Virus record (IMG/VR): IMGVR_UViG_3300032007_000018 | Location: 72,445-136,444 of that record | Strand: one strand, 5' to 3' | Source: a virus | DNA: 64,000 nucleotides | Shown here: positions 33,346 through 46,637 of the stretch, one piece after another | Layout of the letters: every line of letters begins with the position of its first letter | How positions within the stretch are numbered: position 1 is the first letter of the stretch | The notes under the pieces: generated by a model | Databases searched by the model: none | Seen by the model: the letters and a program-made list of their open reading frames with translations, nothing else | What the model was told of the DNA's origin: nothing | Translations under genes and position numbers: made by a program

Positions 33346-33513
33346 ATGAACGAATTCCGTGAAAAGCTGATTGACCGAATGATTAAGCAATTCGGGTTTG
33401 AGCATCCCAACACCATCGCCTTTGCTAACCTGTGCGAAGCCACTTGGATTAGTGACGAAGCCCTTGAGAAAGCGGTGGAACACCACGAAGCCAACAGCAT
33501 CTTTGAGGACTGA
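33346..33513 (+). CDS. Early small protein (55 aa)
   Basis: Promoter TTGACA 33294 / TATAAT 33317. SD AAAGGGGAT. Confidence 0.5.
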   Translation: MNEFREKLIDRMIKQFGFEHPNTIAFANLCEATWISDEALEKAVEHHEANSIFED

Positions 33514-33692
33514 GAAATCAGCCCTCTTTTTTATTCCAATAGCAAGATTGTTAGTTAATTAACTAACGAGCGTGCGCCCGGGCGGATTCACCGACTGCCG
33601 CAGATTGTTAAAAAAATAATTATTAAAAAATGCTTGACATTTTGCCCGGTCTGTGCTATTATAATTACAGAAAGAGAAAGGAGGCCACTAAA

Positions 33693-33800
33693 ATGGCTAT
33701 GACGATTGAATACTTTGAGACCATGGGCGATGCCCTTGATGAACTCCGCGACTGGGAGGCCTACGAGGCCGACATCGCCGATAGCGACCCCTGGGCCTAA
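33693..33800 (+). CDS. Early small acidic protein (35 aa)
   Basis: Promoter TTGACA 33634 / TATAAT 33660. SD AAAGGAGG. Confidence 0.4.
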   Translation: MAMTIEYFETMGDALDELRDWEAYEADIADSDPWA

Positions 33801-34071
33801 GCCCGGGGGATTTTTAATTCGTTTTTTCGGGCGCGCCGCCCACGACCCAGCCGGCGCGTTTTCGCACTAAATCAGTAGTTCGATAATTTGTTAGCGTTTT
33901 AGTGCGCTAAAGCGCTAACGTGCAATGTCCCGAAATGAATAATCATACATGGAAAATGAATAAAAATTTTTTTGCCAAATTGCATTTTGGGGGTTGACAT
34001 TCCCGGATAATCTGGTATAATAGGTTACAGAAAGGGCAAGGAAAAGCCCCCAAACCAGAAAGGAAAAAACA

Positions 34072-34224
34072 ATGTACTCTGTGTGGATGACCGATGACCT
34101 CTGCTGCGACGATGTGATGGTGTTCGAAGGAACCCTCGCTGACTGCCTCGCCTACACCGCCGATGACGAATTCGACGAAATGTACATCGTAGAGCCAGAT
34201 GGTTTCACCGTGTACGGTGACTAA
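34072..34224 (+). CDS. Early small acidic protein (50 aa)
   Basis: Promoter TTGACA 33994 / TATAAT 34016. Conserved leader ACAGAAAGGGCAAGGAAAAGCCC..AAACCAGAAAGGAAA, shared with 35277. Confidence 0.45.
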   Translation: MYSVWMTDDLCCDDVMVFEGTLADCLAYTADDEFDEMYIVEPDGFTVYGD

Positions 34225-34244
34225 TCCAAAAGGAGGACAACTCA

Positions 34245-34421
34245 ATGACCACTTTCTTCAACCGCACCCCTGCCGAGCAGGAAATCATCCGCAAGGCTTA
34301 CGACTTTGAAGTCGCCGCCATTGAAGCGGAAAGCTCCGAACGTAACCCCTACTTTGAAGCCCTACAAACTATGGGGCTGTGGGAAGCCGTCAATGAAGCG
34401 CTGGAAATGCGCCACAACTAA
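34245..34421 (+). CDS. Early small protein (58 aa)
   Basis: SD AAAGGAGGA. Co-transcribed with 34072. Confidence 0.45.
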   Translation: MTTFFNRTPAEQEIIRKAYDFEVAAIEAESSERNPYFEALQTMGLWEAVNEALEMRHN

Positions 34422-34706
34422 GAGAGCCGAGCCAATCGACTCTCTTTTCATTTGTCCAAGAGGATAAATAGCCACACGTGAGTAATGAATAATTATTCAT
34501 CGGCCGGCCGCCCACGCGCCATGCGGCCGGTTTTTCCATTATACCACAGCCCCAGTAATTTGTCAATAGACAATTTGCACAAATTTTCAATACACCGGGC
34601 GCCCGAAATTTGTGCATTTTGCCAAGAGTAGAAAATGAAAAAATAGTTGACAAAATGCCGCGCATCTGCTATACTGTTATCAGATAAGGAAAGGAGATAC
34701 AAAACG

Positions 34707-35153
34707 ATGAAAATTTGGTTTGACATGGATGGGACGCTGGCTGACCTGTACGGCGTTGATAACTGGCTGGATAAGCTCCGCTCTGGCGACCCCTCCCCCT
34801 ATATGGATGCCGCGCCGTTACTCCGCCTGTCCGCTCTGGCGCGAGTGCTGAATCGCCTGCTCCGCGAGGGCAACGAGGTCAGCATCGTGAGCTGGCTGTC
34901 TAAAAACAGCACCCCCGAATATGACAATATGGTGACTGCGGCAAAACACGCATGGCTGGCGAAACACCTGCCGAGCGTCAAGTGGACTGCGGTGCGGATT
35001 GTCCCCTACGGCACACCGAAAAGCGAGGTTGCCGAGCTTGACCCCCACGACGTGCTGTTTGACGATGAAGAAAACAACATCATCGAATGGGAAGAAGCTG
35101 GCGGTTGGGGCTTTGACCCCTCCGAGATTATGAGTTTTCTGCGGGCGGCATAA
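34707..35153 (+). CDS. HAD-superfamily 5'(3')-deoxyribonucleotidase-like (NT5C family) hydrolase
   Basis: MKIWFDMDGTLADLYG, which is HAD motif I DxDGT. Promoter TTGACA 34647 / TATACT 34670. The track ORF has an N-terminal artefact extension from 34647. Confidence 0.6.
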   Translation: MKIWFDMDGTLADLYGVDNWLDKLRSGDPSPYMDAAPLLRLSALARVLNRLLREGNEVSIVSWLSKNSTPEYDNMVTAAKHAWLAKHLPSVKWTAVRIVPYGTPKSEVAELDPHDVLFDDEENNIIEWEEAGGWGFDPSEIMSFLRAA

Positions 35154-35276
35154 GCCCGCGGGGCGCTCGCCCGGGCTGAAAAAAATTTTCAAAAACCCCT
35201 TGACATTTCCGGGAAACCTGCTATAATAGATTACAGAAAGGGCAAGGAAAAGCCCAAAAACCAGAAAGGAAACGCT

Positions 35277-35465
35277 ATGTATACTCTGATTATCACCCGC
35301 ACTTGCGGCGAGACCCCCACCGAGGTCAACTTCCCCATCTCCGGCTGCGATGCGGCTTATACCGCATTCCGCATGGCTTGCGAGCTGTGCGATCTCGCGG
35401 GCGGCGGTGTCTACCTGACAGATGCCAATACGGGCGAGATTCTCGCCGACAACTCCGAGGACTAA
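35277..35465 (+). CDS. Early small protein
   Basis: Track ORF. Promoter TTGACA 35209 / TATAAT 35221. Shares its leader with 34072. Confidence 0.5.
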   Translation: MYTLIITRTCGETPTEVNFPISGCDAAYTAFRMACELCDLAGGGVYLTDANTGEILADNSED

Positions 35466-35654
35466 TCCTCGGAGTTTTTTTGAGCCGCGCGTGCCCGGGC
35501 GCCACGCGCGGTTTTTGCATAATTATACGTCATTTATGAATTTTTATTCATTACACCTAGTAATCAAAAATTTTTTCATTTTTCCTAAAAAAGTTCTTGA
35601 CATCCGGGCGCAAGTGTGCTAATATAGTATCAGAAAACGAAAGGGGATAAAAAA

Positions 35655-36140
35655 ATGACTATCATCACTTCTGAACTGCCTATCAGCTTCATCTATGACC
35701 CTGCGCACAATCGCGCCCGTTATTCCATCAATAATGGCGAAAGCTGGATGAATCACGGCGAATTTTGTGAGCGCATGGCAAAAGTCATTCTCGGCTTCAG
35801 CCCCGACAAGGATTCCGTGGCTTTTGATAAGGGATATGACATTCCCGAACTCAAGGCGAGCGTTAAGTCCTATAAGTGCGGCCTCAGCAACTGCAAGGAC
35901 ATGCCTAAGACCCCCACCGAGTTCATGGCTGAGTTCTGGAGACGCGATATTGCCGAGCTCCACATATATGTCTGTGACCATGGCGATTATATGGCGCTCT
36001 ATATAATGAACACGCCAGAATTTCAGCGGTTCATTGAGCACTTCGCCAAGTGGGAAGAGGACACTCACAACTTCAGAATGTATACCTGCGACAGCAAGGT
36101 TGAACGGTGGTTGACAAATAATTATGCAGAGGATGAATAA
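35655..36140 (+). CDS. Early hypothetical protein (161 aa)
   Basis: Track ORF. Promoter TTGACA 35597 / TAATAT 35620. A palindromic terminator lies at 36122-36165. Confidence 0.65.
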   Translation: MTIITSELPISFIYDPAHNRARYSINNGESWMNHGEFCERMAKVILGFSPDKDSVAFDKGYDIPELKASVKSYKCGLSNCKDMPKTPTEFMAEFWRRDIAELHIYVCDHGDYMALYIMNTPEFQRFIEHFAKWEEDTHNFRMYTCDSKVERWLTNNYAEDE

Positions 36141-36400
36141 TCCTCTGCATAATTATTCATTTTCCGGCGGCGCGCTCACGGGCCTGGCGCGCCGACTTTC
36201 ACGCGCTAAAGTGCTAAAGTAATAAAAATTTGGATTATCACGCTTTCGCACGTTAAAGTATTAATTCCCGAAAGTAGTCCATCGCTGGACTATCCAAGAG
36301 TGGCGAAGATTGTTAAAAAAAAGATTATTAAAAAAGGGGTTGACACCCGGGCGATTGTGTGCTATACTGTTACCAGAGTTAAGGAAAGGAGATAACCACC

Positions 36401-36850
36401 ATGACTACCTACACTATCAACCGCCCCGCCGCCGCCCCGAAAAATGAGGGCATCGCCCGCGAATGGGCTCTGTGTGCCTACTATAAGGTTACCCGCACGT
36501 CACACGACAGCCTTGCCTATGACAAGGGCAGCGACCTTGACGCGGGTAGCAAGCATATCTCCATAAAGGCAAGCGCGTTCACTCTGATGGCGGGTTGTCT
36601 GTGTGAGGGTCTGACCTCCTTTGACGCCATCTGGAATCTTTATGCCAGCAAGGTGCATAGCAACACCTTCGCCTATGTCACCGCGGACTTCACCGTGTAC
36701 GAGATGAACCTTGACGAGTTCAAAAAGTTCGTATATGCTTTCGCTCATACCGAACGCGAGAGCGAGAAAAACGGCGGTCAGGTCAAGATTCGCCTCCGCA
36801 AGGAAAGCGGCAAGATGCTCAAGTGGCTGGCCAATATGGCCGCCGCTTGA
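36401..36850 (+). CDS. Early hypothetical protein (149 aa)
   Basis: Track ORF. Promoter TTGACA 36340 / TATACT 36364. Confidence 0.65.
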   Translation: MTTYTINRPAAAPKNEGIAREWALCAYYKVTRTSHDSLAYDKGSDLDAGSKHISIKASAFTLMAGCLCEGLTSFDAIWNLYASKVHSNTFAYVTADFTVYEMNLDEFKKFVYAFAHTERESEKNGGQVKIRLRKESGKMLKWLANMAAA

Positions 36851-36929
36851 ACGCCCCGCAAAAATAATGCTTGACAAATCAATGAATATATGCTATAATA
36901 CAAATAGAAAATGAAAAGGAGATAAAAAA

Positions 36930-37127
36930 ATGAGAGATATTAACAGAATTATGCCGCTGATGGAACAGCTCGGCAATGTTTGGGAGCAGTTTCCCGACCT
37001 GCGCTTTATGCAGTTCATCGTCAACTTCCAGTCGTGGCTCGGCTCCGATGGCTTCTATATGGAAGATGACAAATTGATCGAGAAGATTTGCGAGTTCGCA
37101 ACCGAAATGAGAAAGGGGTACTTCTAA
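36930..37127 (+). CDS. Early small protein
   Basis: Track ORF. Promoter TTGACA 36871 / TATAAT 36894. Confidence 0.55.
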   Translation: MRDINRIMPLMEQLGNVWEQFPDLRFMQFIVNFQSWLGSDGFYMEDDKLIEKICEFATEMRKGYF

Positions 37128-37393
37128 TGGCTATCACAATCAAGCGCGAAAAGAACAACCGCGGCGTTCCTCTGCGCGGTCTGCGAGTTGGCGAAACTTT
37201 CCTATATGACAACCGCGTGGGCGTAGTGGTCGAGCGCAATGGGCATCAGTTCTATCTTGACCTGACCACCTGCCACAACTTCCGCAAAAGCAATGACCTG
37301 CGGTGGGACACTTATTACAAAAACAGCGAGCTTGACCCCGATACCCTTGTCCTGCCTGTGGAAATTGAACTTACTTACAAGGTCGTGGGCTAA
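37127..37393 (+). CDS. Early small protein (88 aa)
   Basis: TAATG overlap with the upstream gene. It is the C-terminal part of track ORF 37088..37393. Confidence 0.5.
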   Translation: MAITIKREKNNRGVPLRGLRVGETFLYDNRVGVVVERNGHQFYLDLTTCHNFRKSNDLRWDTYYKNSELDPDTLVLPVEIELTYKVVG

Positions 37394-37496
37394 GCCTGCG
37401 ACCTTTGGCCCGGGCGGCGCGAAAAAAATTTAATTTTATGCTTGACATTTGCTTACACCTGTGGTATATTAGTTATAGAAAGAGAGGTTGATTGAA

Positions 37497-37619
37497 ATGC
37501 GTGATTACTTCAAGCGTATTCGTTGCAAAGGTCGGTATTGCCGCTATGAGATTACGAACAAAACTGTTCGTAGCGTGGCAAAGAATGAAACTAAAAAGGA
37601 GATGGCGAAACGTGGATAA
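37497..37619 (+). CDS. Small basic Cys-containing protein (40 aa), tentative
   Basis: SD GAGAGG, 7 nt, ATG. Promoter TTGACA 37442 / TATATT 37465. An alternative overlapping frame is track ORF 37492..37761. Confidence 0.3.
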   Translation: MRDYFKRIRCKGRYCRYEITNKTVRSVAKNETKKEMAKRG

Positions 37620-37761
37620 GGAACTGAAAGCCTATCGGCAGAAAATGAGCGCAGAAGATTTACAGATGTATCTGCATTTCAAGAAGCGCGGGAGCAAGGT
37701 TGCCGCAAAGAAAGGCAAAGGGTCGTATGACCGCAAGGACTTTAAGAAAGGGGTTGCGTAG
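37609..37761 (+). CDS. Small basic protein, tentative GTG start
   Basis: SD AAGGAG, 8 nt, GTG. It is the C-terminal part of the track ORF. Confidence 0.3.
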   Translation, partial: NVDKELKAYRQKMSAEDLQMYLHFKKRGSKVAAKKGKGSYDRKDFKKGVA

Positions 37762-37762
37762 A

Positions 37763-37957
37763 ATGATGGAATGGCAGAAGAAAATGCTTGAGGGTATGCG
37801 CCTGATGCAGGAAGCCTGCGCCGAGGTCGGTTCTTGGAATGACTGTCGCAAATGCCCTTTTGGTCGGTATTGCGATACGCTCATGGAGAACGATGACATT
37901 GATTCCTTCATGGGATTGCAAGACAAAGAATGGATTGGCGATGAGAAAGTCGATTGA
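37763..37957 (+). CDS. Small Cys-containing protein (64 aa)
   Basis: MMEWQKK... is the C-terminal part of track ORF 37700..37957. Confidence 0.4.
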   Translation: MMEWQKKMLEGMRLMQEACAEVGSWNDCRKCPFGRYCDTLMENDDIDSFMGLQDKEWIGDEKVD

Positions 37958-38157
37958 TTTTTTCAATCGGTTTTTTACTTTGTTCCATTTTTGGCCCGCG
38001 CGGCGACGGTCGCTGGGCAACCGAGGCGCGCGGTATTCGCGCCGGGCGCGCGTTTTCAACAAATTTTGAGCGCCAAGTTTGTTCATAATTACCAGTTGAC
38101 ATTTCCCAAAAGGTGTGCTATACTCTAATTGTAATTTGAAGAAAGGACACCAAACCA

Positions 38158-38820
38158 ATGTATGATTTTGACATTTTCGAGCGATTTATCGTGGTAGATA
38201 CTGAAACCACGAATACGCTTGACGAGCCTATCTGTTATGATGTGGGCTTTGCGGTTGTTGACAGATTCGGCGCGGTTTACGAGAAGTTTTCTTTCGTAGT
38301 TGCCGAAGTGTTCCTTGACCGCGAGTTAATGTCTTACGCCTATTACGCCGACAAAATCGAGCAGTATTGGCAGGACATTAAAGCAGGTCGGCGCAAGCTG
38401 GCGAAATTCTCCACCATTCGGCGCGTTTTCGCTGATGCTTGCAAGCGAAATCAAGTGAAAGTTGTGCTTGCCCACAACGCCCGCTTTGATAACCGCTCCC
38501 TCAATCTGACACAGCGTTATCTGACCGCCTCAAAGTATCGCTATTTCTTTCCTTTTGGCTTGCAAGTATGGGATACGCTGAAAATGTCGCGTGAAGTGCT
38601 GAAAAACGATGATGACTATGGCGCGTTCTGCTACAACAACGACTTTCTGACGCAACGCCTTTGCAAGCAATTTACCGCCGAAGTGCTTTTCCGCTTCATC
38701 ATTGGCGAGATTGATTTTGAGGAATCGCACACAGGGCTTGAAGATGTGCTGATTGAAAAGGAAATTTTTGCCTATCTCATGTGGCGCAAGCCCGAAATCT
38801 GCGGCAAGCTCTGGGGTTAA
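38158..38820 (+). CDS. DnaQ-like DEDDh 3'-5' exonuclease
   Basis: VVDTETT (Exo I), AHNARFD (Exo II), HTGLEDV (Exo III). Promoter TTGACA 38096 / TATACT 38119. Confidence 0.7.
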   Translation: MYDFDIFERFIVVDTETTNTLDEPICYDVGFAVVDRFGAVYEKFSFVVAEVFLDRELMSYAYYADKIEQYWQDIKAGRRKLAKFSTIRRVFADACKRNQVKVVLAHNARFDNRSLNLTQRYLTASKYRYFFPFGLQVWDTLKMSREVLKNDDDYGAFCYNNDFLTQRLCKQFTAEVLFRFIIGEIDFEESHTGLEDVLIEKEIFAYLMWRKPEICGKLWG

Positions 38821-38940
38821 TTACCCTAGGGCAACCGCCCGGGCGGCCGGCAAATTGCACAATCAGCACAAGGAAAAAATCTTATTCTTTGTGTATTTTG
38901 CCTATTGTAATTTTCGTAGGGCTATGCTATACTATAATTG

Positions 38941-39037
38941 TTCCAAGGGAAAGGGAACGCAAGCCGAACCAAGGTCGGGAGAATTGAGAACCATCCGAGG
39001 CCGCTCAAAAAAATCCGAAAAAAAATGAAAAAAAGGC
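38941..39037 (+). ncRNA. Promoter-driven ORF-less structured RNA (about 100 nt). Shares its 5' end with the RNA at 46262.
   Basis: Promoter TTGTAA 38905 / tgcTATACT 38928. Begins AUUGUUCCAAGGGAAAGGGAACGC, with hairpins GUUCC..GGAAC and CCGA..UCGG. No ORF. The next promoter starts at 39038. Confidence 0.4.
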
Positions 39038-39118
39038 TTGACAAATCCCCAAACCTGTGGTACAATAAAATCACAAAAGGAGAGCTGAACTCCACAAACA
39101 GAGAAAGGGTTGATACCA

Positions 39119-39489
39119 TGACCACTTCCAAGACCACCAACAAGACCGCCCTTCAGTTCGCGCTGGACAATCTGCCGAACGCTCCCGCCGATGTGCGCGA
39201 GAAGTGGCAGAAGATGATCGACCAGCTCGACAAGAAGAACGCCGCACCCAAGAAGCTGACCGCCCAGCAGGAGAAGAATGTCGCCATGAGCGGCGAGGTG
39301 CTGGACTTCCTGCTCGACCACGAGGGCGAGGGCTTCACTGTGAGCGACCTGCTCAAGTCTGTGCCTGTCCTTGAGGGCGACAGCAACCAGCACGCCTCTG
39401 CGCTGATGCGTGCGCTTGTGCTGGCTGGCTCTGTGGAGAAGTACACCGACAAGCGGCGCACCTACTTCCGCGCGGTGACTGCCGCGTAA
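39119..39489 (+). CDS. Early protein, paralog family 1 (with 45643 and 59848)
   Basis: Promoter TTGACA 39038 / TACAAT 39061. Shares ...KRRTYF... C-terminus and ATGACC start context with its paralogs. Confidence 0.6.
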
Positions 39490-39649
39490 TCCCCAGCGGC
39501 AGGGGGGGCAATAGCCCCCCCAATTCTTTTACCCTGCCACTTTAATACTTTAGCGCGCGAGCGCGCCCGGGCGACGGTTTACATAATAATTTTCTGCTTG
39601 ACATTTTCCAAAAGGTATGCTATACTATCCACAGAAAGGAGAGATAGCT

Positions 39650-40012
39650 ATGACCGAAAAGGAAATTCTTCACGCGATGAAAACCCTTGACTTGACCCGC
39701 GAAGAAGCGATTGAAATGCTCCAAGAGGATGAAGCAATCGACCGCGGCGCTGACCCGCACCCGCTGACCCCCGAACAGGAGAAAGCAAGTAAAGCGGCGC
39801 GTATTGTCTCTACTGGACCGCGCACCGCCCAAGTAAAGCGAGAGCGCAAGCCGAATGAGGACAAGCGCGAACTGATTGCGGCGATTGAAGAAATGCTGAC
39901 TTACAGCGACATTCAAGCCGAGAGCGTCACCATCACCAACCCCGAGCGTCAAATCGACTTTGAATTCCGCGGCAATCGCTACCGCGTAGTGTTGAGCGCC
40001 CCGCGCAAGTAA
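39650..40012 (+). CDS. Early protein, paralog family 2 (with 42632)
   Basis: Promoter TTGACA 39598 / TATACT 39621. SD AAAGGAGAGAT. Shares LT.EQEK...ERKPN motifs with 42632. Confidence 0.6.
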   Translation: MTEKEILHAMKTLDLTREEAIEMLQEDEAIDRGADPHPLTPEQEKASKAARIVSTGPRTAQVKRERKPNEDKRELIAAIEEMLTYSDIQAESVTITNPERQIDFEFRGNRYRVVLSAPRK

Positions 40013-40100
40013 GCGCGGGGTAATTCGCCCGGGCGCAAGTTAAAAAAATAACTTTTAAAAAACTATTGACATTTAGCGCCCCCTGTGCTATACTAGAGTG

Positions 40101-40440
40101 GCCATTGACCGAGGAACTGTGGAGGGAAGCCAACATCAACCCTGCGAGTACCAAAGAATGTGTGTTGGTGATGATTACACGATGAAGTCGGCCTGCGGAC
40201 AAAAGTTTTCTTAAATGGGAGAAAGGTTATAGATGCAGCAGGAACGATGAATTTTTTAGGCAGTTTGTTTCCTGTCGGTGAAAAGGAAAAAAGACTCCCC
40301 CTTGAGGGGGCGGTGAGCAAAAATGGCAAAAGACTTAGTAGTGAGCGAGCGAGTCTTCAACTCTCAACACGCAAAAGCGAATGGTGAGCCAGAAAGCAAG
40401 AGACGCCCCCAAGAAAGGGTAAAAAAAAATGAAAAACCTA
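40101..40440 (+). ncRNA. ORF-poor transcript of about 340 nt immediately upstream of the tRNA (candidate structured ncRNA or tRNA leader)
   Basis: Promoter TTGACA 40066 / TATACT 40089. No plus-strand ORF in the track. Hairpins CCCCCUUGAGGGGG and AAGACU..AGUCUU. One weak 42-codon ORF ends at a TAG inside the next -35. Confidence 0.35.
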
Positions 40441-40474
40441 TTGACAAATAGCCAAAAGTGTGCTATACTATAAT
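40441..40474 (+). promoter_or_regulatory. Class A promoter driving the tRNA
   Basis: TTGACA, 17 bp, tgcTATACTATAAT, ending 9 nt before tRNA position 1. Confidence 0.6.
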
Positions 40475-40482
40475 CACAACAA

Positions 40483-40558
40483 GGGAATGTAACTCAAATG
40501 GTAGAGTAGCGGATTCTTACTCCGAAGGTTGCGGGTTCAACTCCTGTCATTCCCACCA
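40483..40558 (+). tRNA. tRNA-Lys (anticodon CUU) with encoded CCA
   Basis: Cloverleaf: acceptor GGGAATG/CATTCCC (7 bp); D-arm ACTC-AAATGGTA-GAGT; anticodon stem GCGGA/TCCGA (one G.A); loop TTCTTAC with U33-CUU-A37; variable AGGTT; T-arm GCGGG-TTCAACT-CCTGT; discriminator A, CCA. Confidence 0.75.
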
Positions 40559-40729
40559 ATGTTTCTAATCTCCTTTCTATTCCTCTCTTTCTGTGCAGGG
40601 CGGCTCCTATTGGGGCCGCTTTGTGCGCCCGGGCGGGCGATTGTTAAAAAATAAACTTTTGAAAAAAGTATTGACAAAACGCATCAAAGATGCTATACTA
40701 TAATCACCAAGAGAAAAGGAGATAAAAAA

Positions 40730-40942
40730 ATGTTCAATGATGCTATTCTCGTAGGTCGCAACTGCCCCTTCTGCGGCGAGTACCATGAGGTCATGGTCAG
40801 CGAAGCTGACTATGTCGCGTGGCAGAGCGGGGAACTGGCGCAGAACGCCTTCCCCTACCTCTCCGCCGATGAGCGTGAAATCCTCATCAGCGGCATCTGC
40901 CCCAAGTGCTGGGCAAAAACTTTCGGGGAGGAGGATGAATAA
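40730..40942 (+). CDS. Small Zn-ribbon protein
   Basis: Track ORF with CPFCG...CPKC. Promoter TTGACA 40671 / TATAAT 40699. Confidence 0.6.
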   Translation: MFNDAILVGRNCPFCGEYHEVMVSEADYVAWQSGELAQNAFPYLSADEREILISGICPKCWAKTFGEEDE

Positions 40943-41208
40943 TGAAAGCAACTGGAATTGTGCGCCGACTGGATGACCTCGGACGCATCGTGCTCCCCAA
41001 GGAGATTCGCCGCACTCTCAATGTTCACGAGGGCGACGCAATGGAGATTTGGGTGGATGATGAACACAAGGGCATCGTCCTCACCAAGTACAACTGCGAC
41101 GAAAACGCGGTAACGCTTCTCAAGCAGGCTGCGCAGATGCTGGAGGGCAGCGAGAACGCCGCTTATCGCGACCTTATTTTCCACATCGCATCTAAGCTGG
41201 GGGAATAA
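40942..41208 (+). CDS. AbrB/SpoVT-family (swapped-hairpin) DNA-binding regulator
   Basis: VRRLDDLGRIVLPKEIRRTLNVHEGDAMEIWVDDE matches the AbrB N-domain signature. ATGA overlap with the upstream gene. Confidence 0.7.
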   Translation: MKATGIVRRLDDLGRIVLPKEIRRTLNVHEGDAMEIWVDDEHKGIVLTKYNCDENAVTLLKQAAQMLEGSENAAYRDLIFHIASKLGE

Positions 41209-41343
41209 TTACCCCCAGCTAACCGCCCGGGCAAAAGATTGTTAAAAAATAAACTTTTCAAAAACCTATTGACAAAACAAAAAAGGTATGCTATACTATA
41301 ATCACATTGAGGGTGATGACCGAACATCGAAAGGAGATACAAA

Positions 41344-41673
41344 ATGACTTATCTTGTTAAGAGGGAAATGACAAGAGCGTGGAAGCGTTTTTCAACTTTC
41401 GCATTTCTCGACCAGTACCTGCGCGCCCACGTGGGCGACACTTTCACAGTCCGCGACCTGCGGGCTATCTGCCCCGACATCTGCCCGAACACCGCTGCCG
41501 CTTGGCTGAGCGACTACGCCAGAGCTTTCGGCGTCAAGGTCAGCGTGAGCAATACCTACATCGAACTTGACAAGCCCATCAAGATTGACAGCTGGGGCGG
41601 GCGCGCTGTCTACATTGAGGGGTATAAAGCCCACCTGTACCATGTGGACGCGCTCGACCCCACCTGGGAGTAA
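41344..41673 (+). CDS. Early hypothetical protein
   Basis: Track ORF. Promoter TTGACA 41269 / TATAAT 41297. Leader GGGTGATGACCGAACATCG. Confidence 0.6.
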   Translation: MTYLVKREMTRAWKRFSTFAFLDQYLRAHVGDTFTVRDLRAICPDICPNTAAAWLSDYARAFGVKVSVSNTYIELDKPIKIDSWGGRAVYIEGYKAHLYHVDALDPTWE

Positions 41674-41864
41674 TTCCCACGAGAACATCACCGACATTCA
41701 CGACAGCCCGCTTTTCAAGAGTCTGTTTGGGGAGTAATCCCCAGCGGGCTCTGCCCGGGCGATTCGTCAGAATCAATAAATCCAAAAGCAAAAGTTTGTG
41801 TAACATTCTAAATTGATTTTTATAAAAAATTATGTTATTATAATAATAGAAAGGAGAATGAGAA

Positions 41865-42038
41865 ATGAGATTGTTAATGTTCGTATTTTGTGGGCTTCTG
41901 GCTCTGCGCTTCGTGTGGGACTTCTCCCAAATGTCCAAAAGCAAAGACGCAACAGCCTTTACAAGAGGGTTAATGTCTGCGGCGTTTGATGCCGCTGTGA
42001 TTATCCTGTTTGCAATTATTGAGAAAGGAAGATGGTAA
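41865..42038 (+). CDS. Small membrane protein (57 aa) in an AT-rich islet
   Basis: Class B promoter TTGATT 41814 / TATAAT 41839. SD AAAGGAGAA. Two hydrophobic segments. Confidence 0.45.
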   Translation: MRLLMFVFCGLLALRFVWDFSQMSKSKDATAFTRGLMSAAFDAAVIILFAIIEKGRW

Positions 42039-42039
42039 A

Positions 42040-42516
42040 ATGAAAATGTTGATTATTTTTGCCCTTGCTACTCTTTTGAATGTGGTGCTTGCCACTATCA
42101 AAAGTGTAATGACAATCAAGGGGACTAAAATTTCTGCGGCGGTGTGGAACGCGCTGTCTTTCGGTCTGTATTCCTACATCGTCATTTTGACCGCCACCGC
42201 TGATTTAACCACGCTTGAAAAAGTTGTTGTTACTGTGGTGTGTAACCTCATCGGCGTGTATGGCGTCAAGTGGGTTGAGGAAAAAATGCGGAAAGACAGA
42301 ATGTGGAAATTAGAAATGACTGTGCTTTCTGCCGAAGCGGACACAATGCACCGCGCATTGGAAGATGCTAACATTCCTAATCACTATGTAAACGCAGGGC
42401 GTCACGCCGCTTTCAGTTGCTACTGTGCAACTAAGGCAGACACCGATGCCGCCCTTGCGATTGGTGAAAAGTTTAACGCAAAAACCTTTGCGGCTGAAAC
42501 CCATTTAGCGCCCTAA
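42040..42516 (+). CDS. Membrane protein (about 3 transmembrane helices) with a soluble C-terminal domain
   Basis: Track ORF 42010..42516 with ATG at 42040 (MKMLIIFALATLL...). Co-transcribed with 41865. Confidence 0.55.
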   Translation: MKMLIIFALATLLNVVLATIKSVMTIKGTKISAAVWNALSFGLYSYIVILTATADLTTLEKVVVTVVCNLIGVYGVKWVEEKMRKDRMWKLEMTVLSAEADTMHRALEDANIPNHYVNAGRHAAFSCYCATKADTDAALAIGEKFNAKTFAAETHLAP

Positions 42517-42631
42517 TAGTTTAGGGCGCTAAAGCGCCCGGGCCGCGATTGTTAAAAAACTAACGCAAAAAATCTCTTGACAACTGTTCCAAAGTGTGCT
42601 ATACTGTATTACAGAAAGGGGGATAAAGCAC

Positions 42632-43015
42632 ATGGCAGAAACGCAAAAAGAAAAAATCATGCGCGTTCTGCAAGTGGACAGCCGACAGGCCGATGAAATC
42701 CTTGCCTATGACAAAGCGGTGGAGCGCGGCGAGAAAACACCCTATGACCTCACCGCCGAGCAGGAAAAGGAAGTCCGCAAGTATCGGCAGGCTGAACGCA
42801 AGCCCACGCTTTACAAGTGGGACACCAAAAAGCGTGAGCGTAAACCCAACGCCACAAAAGAGGGAATTGTCGCAGAAATCGCAACTTTTCTCAAAGAAAA
42901 CAGCGATTTTGACACAAAAGATGTGGAAATCACGAACAAAAATCGCGAGATTACTTTCCAAATCTCCGACGATACCTTTACTGTGACACTGGTGCAGAAG
43001 CGCAAGCCCAAATAA
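42632..43015 (+). CDS. Early protein, paralog family 2
   Basis: Promoter TTGACA 42577 / TATACT 42600. SD AAAGGGGGAT. Confidence 0.6.
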   Translation: MAETQKEKIMRVLQVDSRQADEILAYDKAVERGEKTPYDLTAEQEKEVRKYRQAERKPTLYKWDTKKRERKPNATKEGIVAEIATFLKENSDFDTKDVEITNKNREITFQISDDTFTVTLVQKRKPK

Positions 43016-43161
43016 TGCGGAAAAACCGCGGTTTTCGCAAGAAAATCGCGGTTTTTCTAACTTTTTTCGCATTTTTTAACGATTTACTGCGCGAAAGTGC
43101 GCCGCCCGGGTTGATTTTGTAAAAAATTTTTTGTATAATAATAATGTAAGGAAGTGAAAGA

Positions 43162-43413
43162 ATGAATGTGGTAAAGAAAATGGATGACATTGGAAGAATT
43201 GTCATTCCCCAAGATTTGCGGCGTTCATTGCGTTGGATGGGCGGAGATGAAATTGAAATCATTTCAAACAATGATGGAAGTCTTACTTTGCGCAAGCACG
43301 AAAATGATACTGCCAAAAGATTAAAAGAAATAAGTTTGGAATGGTCTAATGACATTGATGTTGAACAGCAATTCACTGAACTAATCAAACTAATTGAAAG
43401 TAAAACAAAATAA
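43162..43413 (+). CDS. AbrB/SpoVT-family regulator (second copy)
   Basis: MDDIGRIVIPQDLRRSLRWMGGDEIEI. Class B promoter TTGATT 43111 / TATAAT 43134. AT-rich islet. Confidence 0.65.
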   Translation: MNVVKKMDDIGRIVIPQDLRRSLRWMGGDEIEIISNNDGSLTLRKHENDTAKRLKEISLEWSNDIDVEQQFTELIKLIESKTK

Positions 43414-43429
43414 CGGAGGAGCCAAAGCA

Positions 43430-43546
43430 ATGTCTATTGAATTGTTAGAAGCCCTAATCTTAATTGTCAAACACTGTTTGGAATCAAACGGTTGCGATGA
43501 TTGTATTCTAAAGGGTTTCTGTGGTAAGTTGCCAAAAGACTGGTAA
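43430..43546 (+). CDS. Small Cys-rich peptide (38 aa)
   Basis: SD GGAGGAG, then ATG. CLESNGCDDCILKGFCG. Confidence 0.35.
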   Translation: MSIELLEALILIVKHCLESNGCDDCILKGFCGKLPKDW

Positions 43547-43716
43547 CCGACACCGGCCGCAGTGCGGTCGAATTTTCACGAGGCAAGCCCTTTGGCTCTT
43601 TTTGTTTTGATTGCCCGGGCCGCAGGTTTACATAATAATTTTCCCGAAAAAAACTGTTGACAAACCGCCAAGAGTATGCTATACTATAATCACCAAGAGA
43701 AAAGGAGATAAATCAA

Positions 43717-44007
43717 ATGGCTACTAGGTATTCTGCGCGTTGGCGCTGGGAGGGTAAGGACAGCGAAAGCATTGCGCTTTTCTCTGCTGATGTTCCGCAG
43801 GAAGTCCTTGTTGACTTCGTGGATTCCCTCTGGGCGAATGCCGCAAACTGGCAGGCTGGCGAGGGCGAAGACATTCGCTGGGTTGACTGCATCGACATGG
43901 AAACTGGCGAGGTCATTGCCGAGCGTTCCGACTGGGACGAACCTGACAACTGCGACGACGATTGCGGCTTCGACCCCTACATGGGTTGCTATACCGATGA
44001 CTGCTAA
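43717..44007 (+). CDS. Early small acidic protein
   Basis: Track ORF. Promoter TTGACA 43657 / TATAAT 43685. Confidence 0.6.
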   Translation: MATRYSARWRWEGKDSESIALFSADVPQEVLVDFVDSLWANAANWQAGEGEDIRWVDCIDMETGEVIAERSDWDEPDNCDDDCGFDPYMGCYTDDC

Positions 44008-44020
44008 GGGGGGTGGAACT

Positions 44021-44167
44021 ATGACCTTGATGCAATGTTATAGTAAAATCATCAGCGAGGTATTCTGGCGCTCCATCTATTTCGGCGTCCCTTTCTCGCA
44101 GGTTTGGCCTCTGCCTGTCATCCTCTGCGTAGCAATCACTGTTTACCACTTCATCACGCGAGAGTGA
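44021..44167 (+). CDS. Small hydrophobic peptide (48 aa)
   Basis: ATG after GGGGGGTGG. It is the C-terminal part of track ORF 43772..44167. Confidence 0.35.
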   Translation: MTLMQCYSKIISEVFWRSIYFGVPFSQVWPLPVILCVAITVYHFITRE

Positions 44168-44261
44168 TGAAGTGGCCCGGGCCAAAATTTTTTTTGAAAA
44201 AGGTATTGACAAATAAACACAAGTATGCTATACTGTATTCAGAAAGTGAGGGATACAGAAA

Positions 44262-44570
44262 ATGAAAAACGAAGTGAAATACAAAGATTATCGCATCGGG
44301 CGTGATGTGTACACTGTAAAACTGACCTATTCTCCGCAAGGTAGCCTTTTCGGCCCTGAAGTGCGTGTGGAAGTGATGAAATGGCATCAGCCGCCCCGCA
44401 ACCTGTGGGAGCGCATCACCGAATGGTGGAAATATTATCTTTCTGGTTGGGTATGGAACCCCGCTTTGACAAATGCTTCGCTTAATGCTTACTGCATTGA
44501 CAAGTGCAACTATGAAGCAGCACAACGCCTCGCAATAGAGAGGGGCGACAAGGAATGGGAGGCTATGTGA
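44262..44570 (+). CDS. Early hypothetical protein
   Basis: Track ORF. Promoter TTGACA 44206 / TATACT 44229. Confidence 0.6.
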   Translation: MKNEVKYKDYRIGRDVYTVKLTYSPQGSLFGPEVRVEVMKWHQPPRNLWERITEWWKYYLSGWVWNPALTNASLNAYCIDKCNYEAAQRLAIERGDKEWEAM

Positions 44571-45311: not shown

Positions 45312-45642
45312 TGGGGGTAGTCCGCGCCCGGGCAGCCGGCAAATTGCACAAAAGGGGTCTAAAATTTTAACACTTTTTGTGCAAAATCCCATCTTGCAAT
45401 TTTCTGAAAATCTGCTATAATAATAATTGTCAAGAGGCGGTGGACACCGCAGAACAAAAACGAGAGGCGCGGACAGCGGTGAACAGTGCGGAGCGCCCAG
45501 CCCGAAAAAATTTTTCAAAGAAATTTGAAAAACCTCTTGACAAACAGCGCGAAGTGTGCTACAATAAGAATGTAAGCAAGAGGGAAACAAAACCCCTGCT
45601 AATAAAATGGGTGGTGACCGACACCAGAAAGAGGTAGATACT

Positions 45643-46044: not shown

Positions 46045-46261
46045 TCCCCCTCCCCTCACAAGGGGCAAGCGCCCCTTTACATGGGCCGTCGGGGGGTCAG
46101 GCCGCGAAAGTCAACGCTTGCCTGTGGCGTTGATAAGTAGTGCCCTTGGGCGGTCGATGTAAGGGGGCGCTTGCGCGCCCGGGTGATTGACAAAAACTTA
46201 ACGAAAATTTTTTTGAAAAAAGTATTGACAAAAGCAGACCTGTGTGCTATACTATAATTGT

Positions 46262-46545
46262 TCCAAGGGAAAAGGGAGCGCGGCGAGGGCTAACAGCGAC
46301 GAGTGGACGCACTTAGGACACCTTGACCGCGCAGGAACATTCAAGGTCGCCACGCGACCAAAAGAGCAAAAGGCAAGATGTGAGAAAGGACGAGCTTACA
46401 ATGGGTTTGCCGATGTGTTATCCTAAGTGGTGGAAGTGACCCACCCGCCAAAAAGAGGTCACCGCCTGTGGCGTCCAAAACCGCAGGTGTTGGATAAGGG
46501 GTCGTTGCCGCGAGGAGTTGCTAACCTTGCGGCAGTCGGCCCGGG
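46262..46545 (+). ncRNA. Promoter-driven ORF-less structured RNA (about 285 nt)
   Basis: Promoter TTGACA 46225 / TATACTATAAT 46248-58. Begins UUGUUCCAAGGGAAAAGGGAGCGC like the RNA at 38941. Stems GGUCGC-cac-GCGACC and UGCCGCGAGG-aguugcuaa-CCUUGCGGCA. No credible ORF; track ORF 46244..46426 starts inside the promoter. Confidence 0.45.
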
Positions 46546-46637
46546 TGATTGTTAAAAAAATAATTAGCAAAAAAGACTTGACAACGACGTAGTTATCTGC
46601 TATACTATAATCACCAAGAGAAAAGGAGATAACTAAA

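What the first reader, a model, noticed from the sequence alone, without database searches (positions are those of the whole stretch)
38941..39037. Family of promoter-driven ORF-less structured RNAs (38941-39037 and 46262-46545) with a shared 5' end
Both transcripts start 6-8 nt after a class A -10 with the same sequence, (A)UUGUUCCAAGGGAAA(A)GGGA(A/G)CGC. Both fold into GC-rich stems. The second runs about 285 nt and includes a 10-bp stem, UGCCGCGAGG/CCUUGCGGCA, with a G-U pair. Neither has a credible ORF. In an array of otherwise tightly packed tiny genes, these are the only cassettes with no coding capacity.
Basis: seen in the sequence. Interest (0 to 1): 0.65.

Follow-up and report, generated by a model that had tools for sequence, protein, structure and literature searches.

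The report
Shared promoter leader; one real RNA
The two "RNAs" share only a promoter-plus-leader module that this group of stop-codon-recoded gut and rumen phages places in front of many different units: the short one is a spacer between two tandem promoters of a DNA-binding-type gene, and the long one is a real, undescribed structured RNA that also carries a conserved 12-codon mini-gene.

Summary
The sequence observation holds. TGCTATACTATAAT is followed by TTGTTCCAAGGGAAA(A)GGGA(A/G)CGC at 38938 and 46258, and nowhere else in the window. After about 24 nt the two units are unrelated, so they are not one RNA family.

The shared part is a clade-wide promoter and leader module. In metagenomes it precedes about 95 distinct units: several ORF-less structured RNAs absent from Rfam, long 5'UTRs, and ordinary mRNAs.

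The short unit (38938-39037) folds no better than shuffled sequence and has no terminator. It lies between promoter P1 and a second promoter P2 (39038) of a winged-helix gene (39118-39489). Every paralog and ortholog examined has this tandem-promoter layout. It is most likely the 5' end of a long 5'UTR.

The long unit (46258-46545) is a complete cassette:
- a 5' domain closed by the leader;
- a Shine-Dalgarno site plus a mini-ORF (MGLPMCYPKWWK), conserved in frame in five of six lineages;
- a core with covarying helices compatible with an H-type pseudoknot that holds the stop codon;
- a 10-bp hairpin with an invariant GUCCAAA loop;
- the usual cassette-end hairpin and CCCGGG.

Its function is unknown. 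The host phage reads TAG as a sense codon (phAss-1-like).

The parts
38849..38902 (+). Imperfect inverted repeat GGCAAATTGCACAA / TTGTGTATTTTGCC just upstream of the -35 of P1. It looks like an operator.
   Evidence: 14-nt arms, 86% complementary. The same motif lies upstream of P1 of other copies of the gene family.
38905..38938 (+). Promoter P1 of the short unit: weak -35 TTGTAA, 17-nt spacer, TG-extended TATACT overlapping TATAAT.
38938..38960 (+). Leader copy 1, TTGTTCCAAGGGAAAGGGAACGC. GUUCC (38940-38944) can pair with GGAAC (38954-38958).
38961..39037 (+). Variable spacer (small hairpin UUGAG...CUCAA) followed by an A-rich tract that serves as the upstream element of P2. There is no terminator and no ORF.
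39038..39066 (+). Promoter P2 (TTGACA, 17-nt spacer, TG-TACAAT) of the same gene.
39118..39489 (+). Gene X1 (123 aa), a multi-copy early gene family with a winged-helix C-terminal half. It is the gene that P1 and P2 serve.
45394..45565 (+). Equivalent tandem-promoter region of the paralog X2: P1' (TTGCAA / TATAAT, 45394-45421), an ORF-less GC-rich spacer with the leader variant TTGTCAAGAGG, and P2' (45537-45565). The X2 gene is at 45643-46044.
46225..46258 (+). Promoter of the long unit (TTGACA, 17-nt spacer, TG-TATACT overlapping TATAAT).
46258..46281 (+). Leader copy 2, TTGTTCCAAGGGAAAAGGGAGCGC.
46259..46340 (+). 5' domain. UGUUCC (46259-46264) pairs with GGAACA (46334-46339), enclosing the stem GCGCGG (46278-46283) / CCGCGC (46327-46332). 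This domain is found only in the window, L155 and L112.
   Evidence: z = -3.2; L112 has GCAAGG / CCUUGU, with two pairs changed on both sides
46345..46359 (+). Small hairpin GGUCGC-CAC-GCGACC.
46385..46439 (+). Shine-Dalgarno site AAAGGA (46385-46390) and mini-ORF ATG...TGA (46401-46439), encoding MGLPMCYPKWWK.
46429..46462 (+). Conserved core. Stem S1 is GGUG (46429-46432) / CACC (46442-46445), extendable to GGUGG / CCACC at 46429-46433 and 46441-46445. Stem S2 is GUGACC (46436-46441, holding the UGA stop) / GGUCAC (46457-46462). The invariant single strand CCCGCCAAAAAGA lies between them. The two stems are compatible with an H-type pseudoknot.
46463..46489 (+). Hairpin H2: a 10-bp stem with the invariant 7-nt loop GUCCAAA (46473-46479).
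   Evidence: 9 of 10 pairs changed on both sides and kept
46499..46560 (+).
   Evidence: (z = -4.1)

Best explanation
The two loci share a modular promoter and leader unit, not a common RNA body.

The module. In this clade of TAG-recoded, phAss-1-like phages of Firmicutes, a strong host-type promoter (TG-TATAcTATAAT) is fused to a nearly invariant initial transcribed sequence, (A)UUGUUCCAAGGGAAA. The module is placed in front of many different units. Inferred: the leader gives each transcript a structured, purine-rich 5' end. It forms a small UUCC/GGAA or GUUCC/GGAAC hairpin at the very 5' end. In many of the RNAs it is the 5' strand of a closing helix with a downstream ...GGAACA... or ...CCCUUGGAA... 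segment. In a Gram-positive host that would protect the RNA from decay starting at the 5' end, and it defines the RNA's terminal helix.

The short unit (38938-39037). This is the transcribed spacer between an upstream, probably regulated promoter P1 and the strong promoter P2 of a winged-helix gene (39118-39489). P1 has a weak -35 and an operator-like inverted repeat upstream. P1 transcripts most likely read through P2 into the gene, so the unit is the 5' part of a long 5'UTR and not an RNA gene.

The long unit (46258-46545). This is a self-contained accessory cassette that expresses a composite RNA, made of:
- a leader-closed 5' domain;
- a ribosome-binding site and a translated mini-ORF of 12 codons;
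- a conserved core in which the last codons and the stop codon of the mini-ORF are built into two short helices (a likely H-type pseudoknot with an A-rich loop);
- a 10-bp hairpin with the invariant loop GUCCAAA;
- the standard cassette-end hairpin plus CCCGGG.

Inferred, with low confidence: ribosomes that translate the mini-ORF open the pseudoknot, so translation sets the conformation or stability of the conserved C-rich and A-rich single strand and of the hairpin. Those are the parts that act, either on a partner RNA or protein or on read-through into the next cassette.
For: Leader is generic:
- After removing chance hits inside genes, 88 units could be judged. 56 have no ORF within 200 nt, 17 have an ORF 70-200 nt downstream behind a second promoter, and 15 are ordinary mRNAs with a Shine-Dalgarno site and ATG.
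- At least four different RNA bodies follow it. None is in Rfam. One of them (family B) shows clear covariation.
- Beyond the leader the two window units share no similarity.
- Exact complements of 8 nt or more to the leader occur downstream in 9 units, against 2.4 in shuffles.
- The variant leader CGUCCCAAGG in L162 is matched by CCUUGGGG downstream.
- L112 carries the long RNA without the promoter and leader, so the leader is separable from the body.

Short unit:
- Folding z-scores are +0.7 and +1.0.
- There is no intrinsic terminator and no CCCGGG element between P1 and the gene.
- All 14 copies of the gene family examined, in 10 loci and the window, have 2-3 tandem promoters separated by short ORF-less spacers of unrelated sequence.
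- The product is a winged-helix protein (pLDDT 87; MepR, ArsR and Z-alpha matches).

Long unit:
- It has its own TTGACA promoter and the same hairpin-CCCGGG-GATTGTTAAAAAA end as 25 other cassettes.
- The covariance model finds 9 core copies, 8 of them distinct, in 6 lineages.
- 94-98% of cells are paired and 10-11 pairs are changed on both sides and kept. 0 of 500 shuffles reach this, and structures slid by 1-3 columns pair only 29-54%.
- The core sits behind at least four unrelated 5' domains.
- A Shine-Dalgarno site lies 7-10 nt before the ATG in every lineage.
- The ORFs are 10, 12, 12 and 14 codons, all in frame with the conserved AAG-UAA/UGA. The L082 ORF is in the same frame but stops 6 codons earlier.
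- Between the window and L017 or L059, the changes GGT>GGA, TTG>CTC and TAT>TAC are synonymous, ATG>CTT/TTT is conservative, and TAA becomes TGA.
Against: - No transcript ends are mapped. The start site, read-through at P2 and the 3' end at CCCGGG are all inferred from sequence.
- The 5'-protection role of the leader is an analogy to Bacillus 5' stabilisers and was not tested.
- The leader is invariant over 16-24 nt across phages whose proteins are only about 30% identical (L002 against the window). That is more than a simple hairpin needs, and it points to sequence-specific recognition, as in the operator or RNA-tag rival.
- The core alignment has only 8 distinct sequences. Stems S1 and S2 each rest on a single pair changed on both sides. 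S1 needs a one-column register shift in the window and L112.
- The mini-ORF peptides differ strongly between lineages (MGLPMCYPKWWK, MFWSGFRSYPVGVK, MYFNPMYFSGFL). In three sequences of two lineages the ORF stops 5-6 codons early, so the peptide itself may not be the functional product.
- No target or partner of the conserved single strand was found in the window.
- The core is absent from most syntenic relatives.
Confidence: 0.6

Rival explanations
1. One reading: the two units are members of one family of non-coding structured RNAs defined by a common 5' end.
For: The first 24 nt after an identical -10 are the same. In relatives the same leader mostly heads ORF-less units.
Against: There is no similarity beyond the leader. 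The leader also heads 15 ordinary mRNAs. The short unit has no excess structure and varies freely among relatives. The long unit's closest homolog, in L112, lacks the leader altogether.
Confidence: 0.05
2. The invariant leader is a sequence-specific recognition site that makes all units carrying it one regulon. It could be a DNA operator at +1 to +16 for a phage or host regulator that switches a subset of early promoters. It could instead be a 5' RNA tag read by a phage protein for processing, protection or anti-termination.
For: The leader is identical over 16-24 nt across phages whose proteins are only about 27-60% identical. It contains TTCC-N3-GGAA dyad symmetry. An unrelated S. thermophilus phage has TATACTATAATTGTTCCAAGGAACAA at its cro promoter, where the palindrome sits in the operator position. 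Only 2 of 36 window promoters carry it, as expected for a sub-regulon.
Against: No candidate binding protein was identified. The exact scan selected for invariance. In loci fetched without regard to the leader, variants occur (CGTTCCAAGGGG, CGTCCCAAGGGAG, GTTCCGAGGG). The S. thermophilus match has E = 0.3 and may be chance. Many units use the leader as one strand of an RNA helix, which speaks for an RNA-level role.
Confidence: 0.25
3. The long unit is simply a very small protein-coding gene (7-14 aa) with a long structured 5'UTR. The 'core' is just the ordinary hairpin architecture found at cassette ends.
For: A Shine-Dalgarno site and ATG are conserved, the frame is kept in five of six lineages, and substitutions are synonymous. 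In ordinary cassettes of this region the stop codon also sits in or next to a GC-rich hairpin followed by CCCGGG, for example CCCCGCGC-AAGTAA-GCGCGGGG at 40000-40030.
Against: The RNA after the stop (CCCGCCAAAAAG.GGU and the GUCCAAA loop) is invariant while the peptide is not. Ordinary cassette hairpins are not conserved in sequence. Two lineages truncate the ORF yet keep the downstream RNA.
Confidence: 0.15
4. The mini-ORF and core form a cis-acting leader-peptide attenuator. Ribosome progress on the mini-ORF decides between alternative helices (S1 or P1 against S2 or H1), and so controls termination at H2 and read-through into the next cassette.
For: The two helices overlap when fully extended. 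The stop codon lies inside one of them. In L082 and in L162 copy 2, H2 is followed by UUGUUUU(U)G, like an intrinsic terminator.
Against: The downstream gene has its own strong promoter and differs between relatives. In the window, L122 and L162 copy 1, H2 is not followed by a U-run. The two helices can also coexist as a pseudoknot. Neither alternative touches H2.
Confidence: 0.12
5. The ORF-less units are decaying or empty cassettes left by recombination between the repeated promoter and terminator junctions, like T4 PeSL elements, and have no function of their own.
For: The region is an array of cassettes with repeated junctions: 26 CCCGGG sites and 36 promoters. Cassette order differs between relatives. 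The content of the short spacer is not conserved.
Against: The tandem-promoter layout before the gene family is conserved in every relative. The core of the long unit is conserved with compensatory changes across lineages that are otherwise very divergent.
Confidence: 0.08

Closest known systems
5' mRNA stabilisers of Gram-positive bacteria and their phages: the aprE leader 5' stem-loop, the polypurine stabiliser of phage SP82 early RNA, and STAB-SD of cryIIIA (references 106, 109 and 179 in PMC3997798)
   Same: A short structured or purine-rich, Shine-Dalgarno-like sequence at the extreme 5' end of transcripts from strong promoters. It can be fused to any downstream RNA.
   Different: Here the sequence is nearly invariant across a whole phage clade and is used mostly on non-coding units. 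No half-life data exist. The resemblance is in how it may work, not in sequence.
PeSL (promoter-early stem-loop) cassettes of T4-type phages (PMC2839356, PMC4122927)
   Same: Arrays of small early genes are each flanked by a conserved stem-loop plus early-promoter junction. The junctions allow modules to be shuffled. The position of the long RNA core differs between relatives, as PeSL modules do.
   Different: The junction sequence is different (hairpin, cgCCCGGGcg, gATTGTTAAAAAA, A-rich tract, TTGACA). The host is a Firmicute and the phage lineage is unrelated. Canonical U-tract terminators are not enriched.
Leader-peptide attenuators and ribosome-stalling leaders (trp, ermC, cat)
   Same: A Shine-Dalgarno site and a very short ORF whose 3' end is embedded in RNA helices. 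A GC-rich hairpin follows.
   Different: No regulated ORF follows on the same transcript. The downstream gene has its own promoter and varies. The helices need not be mutually exclusive.
H-type pseudoknots with an A-rich third loop (preQ1-I riboswitch, viral frameshift and read-through pseudoknots)
   Same: Two short stems in pseudoknot topology and an A-rich strand (GCCAAAAAGA) crossing stem 1. The element sits at the end of a reading frame.
   Different: There is no Rfam match to preQ1 or any other model. The stop codon lies inside stem 2 instead of upstream of the knot. No slippery site lies in frame. The pseudoknot itself is only inferred.
Phassvirus / phAss-1 group of TAG-recoded gut phages (PMC10607447)
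   Same: TAG is read as a sense codon in late genes. The large terminase is 42.5% identical. A Clostridia-type host is inferred. Relatives carry many tRNA genes.
   Different: The published description covers ORFs and tRNAs only. It does not mention promoters, intergenic repeats or non-coding RNAs. The window has no nucleotide-level match in the deposited phage collection.

Membership tests
Any Rfam family (4227 models) | Match at or above the family's gathering score | tested here: not met
   The whole window gave only tRNA at 40483-40555. Both loci searched at E <= 10 gave only noise such as miRNA and snoRNA models. Twenty related loci gave only tRNAs.
tRNA / tmRNA | Cloverleaf, or a tRNA-like domain plus a tag reading frame, detected by ARAGORN | tested here: not met
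   ARAGORN finds only tRNA-Lys(CTT) at 40483-40558. The mini-ORF has its own Shine-Dalgarno site and AUG, unlike a tmRNA tag frame.
One homologous ncRNA family comprising both window units | Alignable sequence or structure beyond the promoter-proximal leader | tested here: not met
   nhmmer with each unit finds its own relatives but never the other unit. Sequences diverge after about 24 nt.
Discrete small RNA gene (short unit) | Own terminator or defined 3' end, and a structure more stable than chance or conserved | tested here: not met
   No terminator-like site and no CCCGGG between 38938 and 39118 on the plus strand. z = +0.7 and +1.0. Only one pair changed on both sides among three close relatives. 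The content is unrelated in more distant relatives.
Structured RNA with conserved fold (long unit core) | Helices kept through compensatory substitutions in independent lineages | tested here: met
   H2 has 9 of 10 pairs changed on both sides. Overall 94-98% of cells are paired, against 29-54% when slid by 1-3 columns, and 0 of 500 shuffles reach the observed values. Caveat: only 8 distinct sequences, and the alignment was fitted to the model.
Protein-coding small ORF (long unit) | Ribosome-binding site, conserved frame, and a substitution pattern biased to synonymous changes | tested here: inconclusive
   A Shine-Dalgarno site lies 7-10 nt upstream in all six lineages. The frame to the conserved stop is kept in five of them (10, 12, 12 and 14 codons, plus L082 with an early stop). 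Window against L017 or L059 shows three synonymous codon changes and one conservative change. There are too few sequences for a formal test, and the peptides diverge between lineages.
Leader-peptide transcription attenuator | Mutually exclusive terminator and anti-terminator helices, and a regulated gene on the same transcript | tested here: not met
   The alternative helices do not involve H2. The next gene has its own TTGACA promoter at 46578 and is not conserved among relatives.
preQ1-I riboswitch | Match to the RF00522 consensus, and a location upstream of queuosine or transport genes | tested here: not met
   No match even at E <= 10. No such gene lies downstream. Only the general hairpin and A-rich-tail layout is similar.
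PeSL-like shuffling cassette array | A repeated stem-loop plus early-promoter junction between small genes, with module order varying between relatives | tested here: met
   All 26 CCCGGG junctions lie in 31.4-49.3 kb, and nearly all sit at cassette ends behind a hairpin. There are 36 promoters. The long-RNA core lies after X2 in the window and L155, between the HD gene and X in L161-L163, before X in L122, and elsewhere in L112. This is a resemblance of architecture, not sequence membership.
5' stabiliser (aprE / SP82 / STAB-SD type) | A structure or Shine-Dalgarno-like element within a few nt of the mapped 5' end that lengthens RNA half-life | not testable with these tools
   A 5' hairpin (UUCC/GGAA or GUUCC/GGAAC) and the purine run AAGGGAAAGGGA are present. 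The transcription start and half-lives are unknown.

The most novel reading that the evidence does not exclude
The invariant leader is a dedicated 5' tag that marks a regulon of phage-encoded structured RNAs. These comprise at least five undescribed families, including the window's long RNA. The tag would be read by a phage or host factor. The mini-ORF and pseudoknot module would be a portable, translation-coupled RNA device that reports or manipulates ribosome or termination status. That could be relevant to a phage that must switch the cell to reading TAG as glutamine before late genes are expressed.
Probability: 0.12. Interest if true: 0.8.

Novelty: new variant of a known kind. Interest (0 to 1): 0.5.

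Why it matters
Phages that recode stop codons are common in gut and rumen, but their early programme is almost unknown. The published description of this group lists only ORFs and tRNAs. This window shows that the early region is an array of about 36 promoter-driven mini-cassettes. A conserved promoter and leader module there drives a set of structured RNAs that are in no database. One of them carries a portable module: a mini-ORF whose stop codon is built into a conserved RNA fold.

That gives concrete, testable candidates for phage riboregulators in Firmicutes hosts. It also gives a ready-made search handle, the 18-nt leader, for finding them in metagenomes.

The result also carries a caution. 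A shared 5' end after a promoter does not by itself define an RNA family.

Tried and rejected
- Rfam, at gathering score and at E <= 10, on the window and on 20 related loci: only tRNAs.
- ARAGORN for tmRNA or odd tRNAs: nothing at either locus.
- Megablast and blastn of the region against deposited phages: no relative. The only hit was a 27-nt promoter and leader look-alike in S. thermophilus phages.
- Single-protein searches of viral contigs with the flanking genes: nothing.
- Scans for the core motif in viral and genome collections: one real hit (L122). The 22 genome hits equal my own rough estimate of the number expected by chance (about 20), and all lie in unrelated, mostly coding, sequence.
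- Covariance-model search of 116 loci: the core is present in only 8 loci plus the window.
- A second small ORF starting at the GUG in H2 (MASKTAGVG): rejected. Its length and sequence are not conserved and simply follow the covarying stem.
- The 38-aa TTG ORF (46323-46439) and the 60-aa GTG ORF (46244-46426): rejected. Neither has a usable ribosome-binding site, and relatives have in-frame stops.
- The in-frame ATG at about 39026 in the A-tract: rejected. It has no Shine-Dalgarno site, it spans P2, and it is TTG in L112.
- Minus-strand ORFs over both loci: rejected. All genes in 31-50 kb are on the plus strand with their own promoters.
- Search for a target complementary to CCCGCCAAAAAG in the window: not above chance.
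- Read-through or frameshift at the mini-ORF stop: no slippery heptamer in frame, and the extended frame would run through the next promoter.
- Pfam and PHROGs on ten neighbouring proteins: only an HD domain (44685-45311) and an exonuclease-like PHROG match (38158-38820).
Full report
WHAT IS IN THE SEQUENCE

The window holds a dense array of host-type promoters on the plus strand between 31.6 and 49.6 kb. There are 36 of them. The extended -10 TGCTATACTATAAT occurs nine times exactly, and 15 times with up to one mismatch, against 0.45 expected. Two copies, at 38925 and 46245, are followed by the same sequence, TTGTTCCAAGGGAAA(A)GGGA(A/G)CGC. These are the only exact matches to TTGTTCCAAGGGAAA in the window. 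The other copies carry other leaders. CACCAAGAGAAAAGGAGATAA occurs three times and CACATTGAGGGTG twice, each running into a Shine-Dalgarno site and an ATG. After about 24 nt the two units of the finding have nothing in common.

It is part of a 17-bp hairpin (z = -4.1). In the near-identical contig L155 the U is a C, so the pair becomes G-C.

CONTEXT

Reading TAG as a sense codon raises long-ORF coverage of 1-30 kb (minus strand) from 24% to 94%. The late genes therefore use genetic code 15. The early region at 30-50 kb uses the standard code and has 45-51% G+C, against 30-36% for most of the rest.

The large terminase (24651-26423, minus strand) is 42-46% identical to those of Enterococcus phages EF1 and H1, Geobacillus virus E3 and the gut phage phAss-1. 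phAss-1 is the type of a proposed group of TAG-recoded phages of Clostridia that carry 28-36 tRNA genes. The paper describing it says nothing about promoters, intergenic repeats or non-coding RNA (PMC10607447).

In the early region every cassette has the same build:
- a promoter;
- a short leader;
- a small gene whose stop codon sits in or beside a GC-rich hairpin;
- cgCCCGGGcg;
- gATTGTTAAAAAA;
- an A-rich tract and the next TTGACA.

All 26 CCCGGG sites of the window lie in 31.4-49.3 kb. Canonical U-tract terminators are not enriched (17 found, 12.3 expected). This architecture resembles the PeSL junctions of T4-type phages (PMC2839356, PMC4122927).

THE SHARED 5' END IS A GENERIC MODULE

About two dozen are chance matches inside unrelated genes. 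In all the others the motif sits directly after a TTGACA-17-TG.TATA.TATAAT promoter.

Of 88 non-redundant units that could be judged:
- 15 run straight into a Shine-Dalgarno site, an ATG and an ORF;
- 17 have an ORF 70-200 nt downstream, behind a second promoter;
- 56 have no ORF within 200 nt.

The ORF-less ones fall into several unrelated bodies.
- Family A is about 165 nt and acts as a long 5'UTR ending in a Shine-Dalgarno site.
- Family B has a helix in which 5 of 6 pairs are changed on both sides and kept.
- Family C is about 170 nt and is followed by promoter-driven tRNA genes.
- Others were seen but not classified.

None of them matches Rfam.

The leader is therefore enriched on non-coding units but does not define one family.

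Many bodies contain a segment complementary to the leader, such as ...GGAACA......CCCUUGGAA... or CCCAUUGGAACAAU. Complements of 8 nt or more occur in 9 units, against 2.4 in shuffles. A variant leader, CGUCCCAAGG, is matched by CCUUGGGG downstream. In the window's long RNA, UGUUCC (46259-46264) pairs with GGAACA (46334-46339) and closes an 82-nt domain (z = -3.2).

I infer that the leader supplies a structured, purine-rich 5' end and often the 5' strand of a terminal helix. It would then work like the 5' stabilisers known from Bacillus and its phage SP82 (references in PMC3997798). This is an analogy and was not tested.

The leader is identical across phages whose proteins are only about 30% identical. 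That is more than a hairpin requires and keeps a sequence-specific operator or RNA tag in play as a rival. An S. thermophilus phage cro promoter carries TATACTATAATTGTTCCAAGGAACAA, with the palindrome in the operator position. That match may be chance (E = 0.3).

THE SHORT UNIT (38938-39037)

Its promoter P1 has a weak -35 (TTGTAA). It is preceded by an inverted repeat, GGCAAATTGCACAA / TTGTGTATTTTGCC (38849-38902). The transcribed stretch folds no better than shuffled sequence (z = +0.7 and +1.0). No terminator-like site and no CCCGGG element follows it. Its 3' third is an A-tract that forms the upstream element of a second, consensus promoter P2 (39038-39066). P2 serves the gene at 39118-39489.

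That gene belongs to a multi-copy early family. There are 375 homologs in metagenomes and several copies per genome. The predicted structure (pLDDT 87) has a winged-helix C-terminal half that matches MepR, ArsR and Z-alpha domains.

The window's second copy (45643-46044) has the same layout: P1' at 45394-45421, an ORF-less GC-rich spacer with a variant leader, and P2' at 45537. So do all copies examined in ten related loci. Each has two or three tandem promoters separated by spacers of 30-90 nt, whose sequences are unrelated except among close relatives. Among three close relatives the window-type spacer has one pair changed on both sides.

The simplest reading is a compound regulatory region. 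A probably regulated upstream promoter produces transcripts that carry the leader hairpin and read through P2 into the gene. The unit is then the start of a long 5'UTR, not an RNA gene.

THE LONG UNIT (46258-46545)

This is a full cassette, with a consensus promoter and the normal hairpin-CCCGGG end.

nhmmer and a covariance model built here find its central 120 nt in nine places, eight of them distinct in sequence, from six lineages. The core sits behind at least four unrelated 5' domains:
- the window type (window, L155, L112);
- a family C RNA (L017, L059);
- a family A-like RNA (L162, 3440-3713);
- a further type (L082; L161-L163);
- L122 has yet another upstream sequence, which I did not compare with the others.

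In L112 the core has no promoter or leader of its own. It is absent from most syntenic relatives and from bacterial genomes. It is therefore a portable accessory module.

The module begins with a Shine-Dalgarno site 7-10 nt before an ATG and a tiny ORF:

| Locus | Peptide |
|---|---|
| window, L155, L112 | MGLPMCYPKWWK |
| L122 | MGLPMCCPMGVK |
| L161, L162, L163 | MFWSGFRSYPVGVK |
| L162, second copy | MGRSYPVGVK |
| L017 | MGLPLCY |
| L059 | MGLPFCY |
| L082 | MYFNPMYFSGFL |

In the first four rows the ATG is in frame with the conserved AAG-UAA/UGA, and the length differences are multiples of three. The L082 ORF is in the same frame but stops 6 codons earlier. The frame cannot be compared in L017 and L059, which carry a 1-nt insertion before that stop.

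Between the window and L017 or L059 the differences are GGT>GGA, TTG>CTC, TAT>TAC, ATG>CTT/TTT and TAA>TGA. They are synonymous, conservative or stop-to-stop.

The RNA is nevertheless better conserved than the peptide. CCCGCCAAAAAG.GGU and the 7-nt loop GUCCAAA are invariant, while the stems covary:
- H2 (46463-46489) has 9 of 10 pairs changed on both sides and kept.
- Overall, 98% of cells are paired, and 0 of 500 shuffles reach that.
- When the structure is slid by 1-3 columns, only 29-54% of cells pair.

Two short helices precede H2. Each has one pair changed on both sides. Trimmed by one pair each, they are compatible as an H-type pseudoknot whose A-rich third loop is GCCAAAAAGA. In that model 94% of cells are paired. 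The last sense codons form stem 1, and the stop codon lies in the 5' strand of stem 2. A ribosome finishing the mini-ORF must therefore melt the knot.

What this achieves is unknown. My preferred guess is that translation controls the conformation or stability of the conserved single strand and hairpin, and that these act on a partner. A plain attenuator is unlikely. The next gene has its own promoter and differs between relatives, and neither helix competes with H2. A plain micro-protein gene is possible, but it does not explain the invariant downstream RNA.

VERDICT

The two loci share a promoter and leader module that is characteristic of this phage clade. They are not one RNA family. The short locus is ordinary: a tandem-promoter spacer. 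The long locus is an undescribed composite RNA with a conserved mini-ORF and a covarying core. The related phages hold several more undescribed structured RNA families behind the same leader.

All statements about transcript ends, translation and function are inferences from sequence. Transcript mapping, ribosome profiling and structure probing would decide them.

Noticed in passing
window 1-30000 (minus strand) and 50000-64000: Late genes read TAG as a sense codon (genetic code 15). Coverage by ORFs of at least 200 codons in 1-30 kb rises from 24% to 94% when TAG is read through, and a 3060-codon ORF appears at 1389-10571. No suppressor tRNA lies in this window; the only tRNA is tRNA-Lys(CTT).
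   Followed up: partly
window 30000-50000 against the flanks: The early, standard-code region has 45-51% G+C, while the recoded late regions have about 30-36%. This is a sharp compositional split inside one phage genome.
   Followed up: no
window 31409-49243 (26 sites): Nearly every early cassette ends with a GC-rich hairpin that often holds the stop codon in its loop. It is followed by cgCCCGGGcg and often by gATTGTTAAAAAA before the next promoter. Canonical U-tract terminators are not enriched. This could be a non-canonical terminator, a processing site or a recombination junction (PeSL-like).
   Followed up: partly
window 40066-40440: Another promoter-driven, ORF-poor unit of about 340 nt, with a different leader, lies just upstream of the promoter-driven tRNA-Lys cassette. 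It contains a Shine-Dalgarno site plus a 5-codon mini-ORF (ATGCAGCAGGAACGATGA, about 40234-40251) and a doubtful 46-aa ORF. No Rfam match.
   Followed up: no
window 45394-45565: A third ORF-less spacer between tandem promoters, with the leader variant TTGTCAAGAGG, lies in front of the second copy of the winged-helix gene (45643-46044).
   Followed up: yes
window 38849-38902 and 45341-45402: Operator-like inverted repeats (GGCAAATTGCACAA / TTGTGyAtTTTGCC) lie immediately upstream of the weak -35 of the P1-type promoters. They are conserved in relatives (L111, L112, L097, L082). They may be the binding site of the winged-helix proteins encoded downstream (autoregulation).
   Followed up: partly
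window 39118-39489 and 45643-46044; L112 (3 copies), L097 and L082 (2 copies each): A multi-copy early gene family of about 125-145 aa has no Pfam or PHROG family. The predicted structure is an N-terminal helical part plus a C-terminal winged helix (MepR, ArsR and Z-alpha-like). There are 375 metagenomic homologs, on contigs of up to 197 kb.
   Followed up: partly
L015 3958-4127, L005, L009, L043 and others (family B); L034, L071, L077 and others (family A); L013, L015 1398-1570, L017 and others (family C): At least three further ORF-less RNA families sit behind the same promoter and leader in related phages, and none is in Rfam. Family B has a strongly covarying helix and a likely long-range pairing (CCAUG/AUGG, ACAUG/AUGU, CUAUG/AUAG). 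Family A is a structured 5'UTR of about 165 nt. Family C precedes arrays of promoter-driven tRNA genes.
   Followed up: partly
L146 (Streptococcus phage A0, MF580765.1) 590-625: The cro promoter of S. thermophilus Moineauvirus phages reads TATACTATAATTGTTCCAAGGAACAA, which is 25 of 27 identical to the window's -10 plus leader. The inverted repeat TTGTTCC-AA-GGAACAA sits in the operator position. This may be chance (E = 0.3), but it is a precedent for a DNA-level role of this sequence.
   Followed up: partly
L017 and L059, about 190-320 nt downstream of the core (L059 3063-3194): A weak second match to the core model contains GCCAAAAAGUUGC. The 3' part of family C RNAs has a similar motif of a hairpin ending in CCC followed by GCCGAUAAAAAG. 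The 'CCCGCC...AAAAAG' element may therefore recur in several RNAs of these phages.
   Followed up: no
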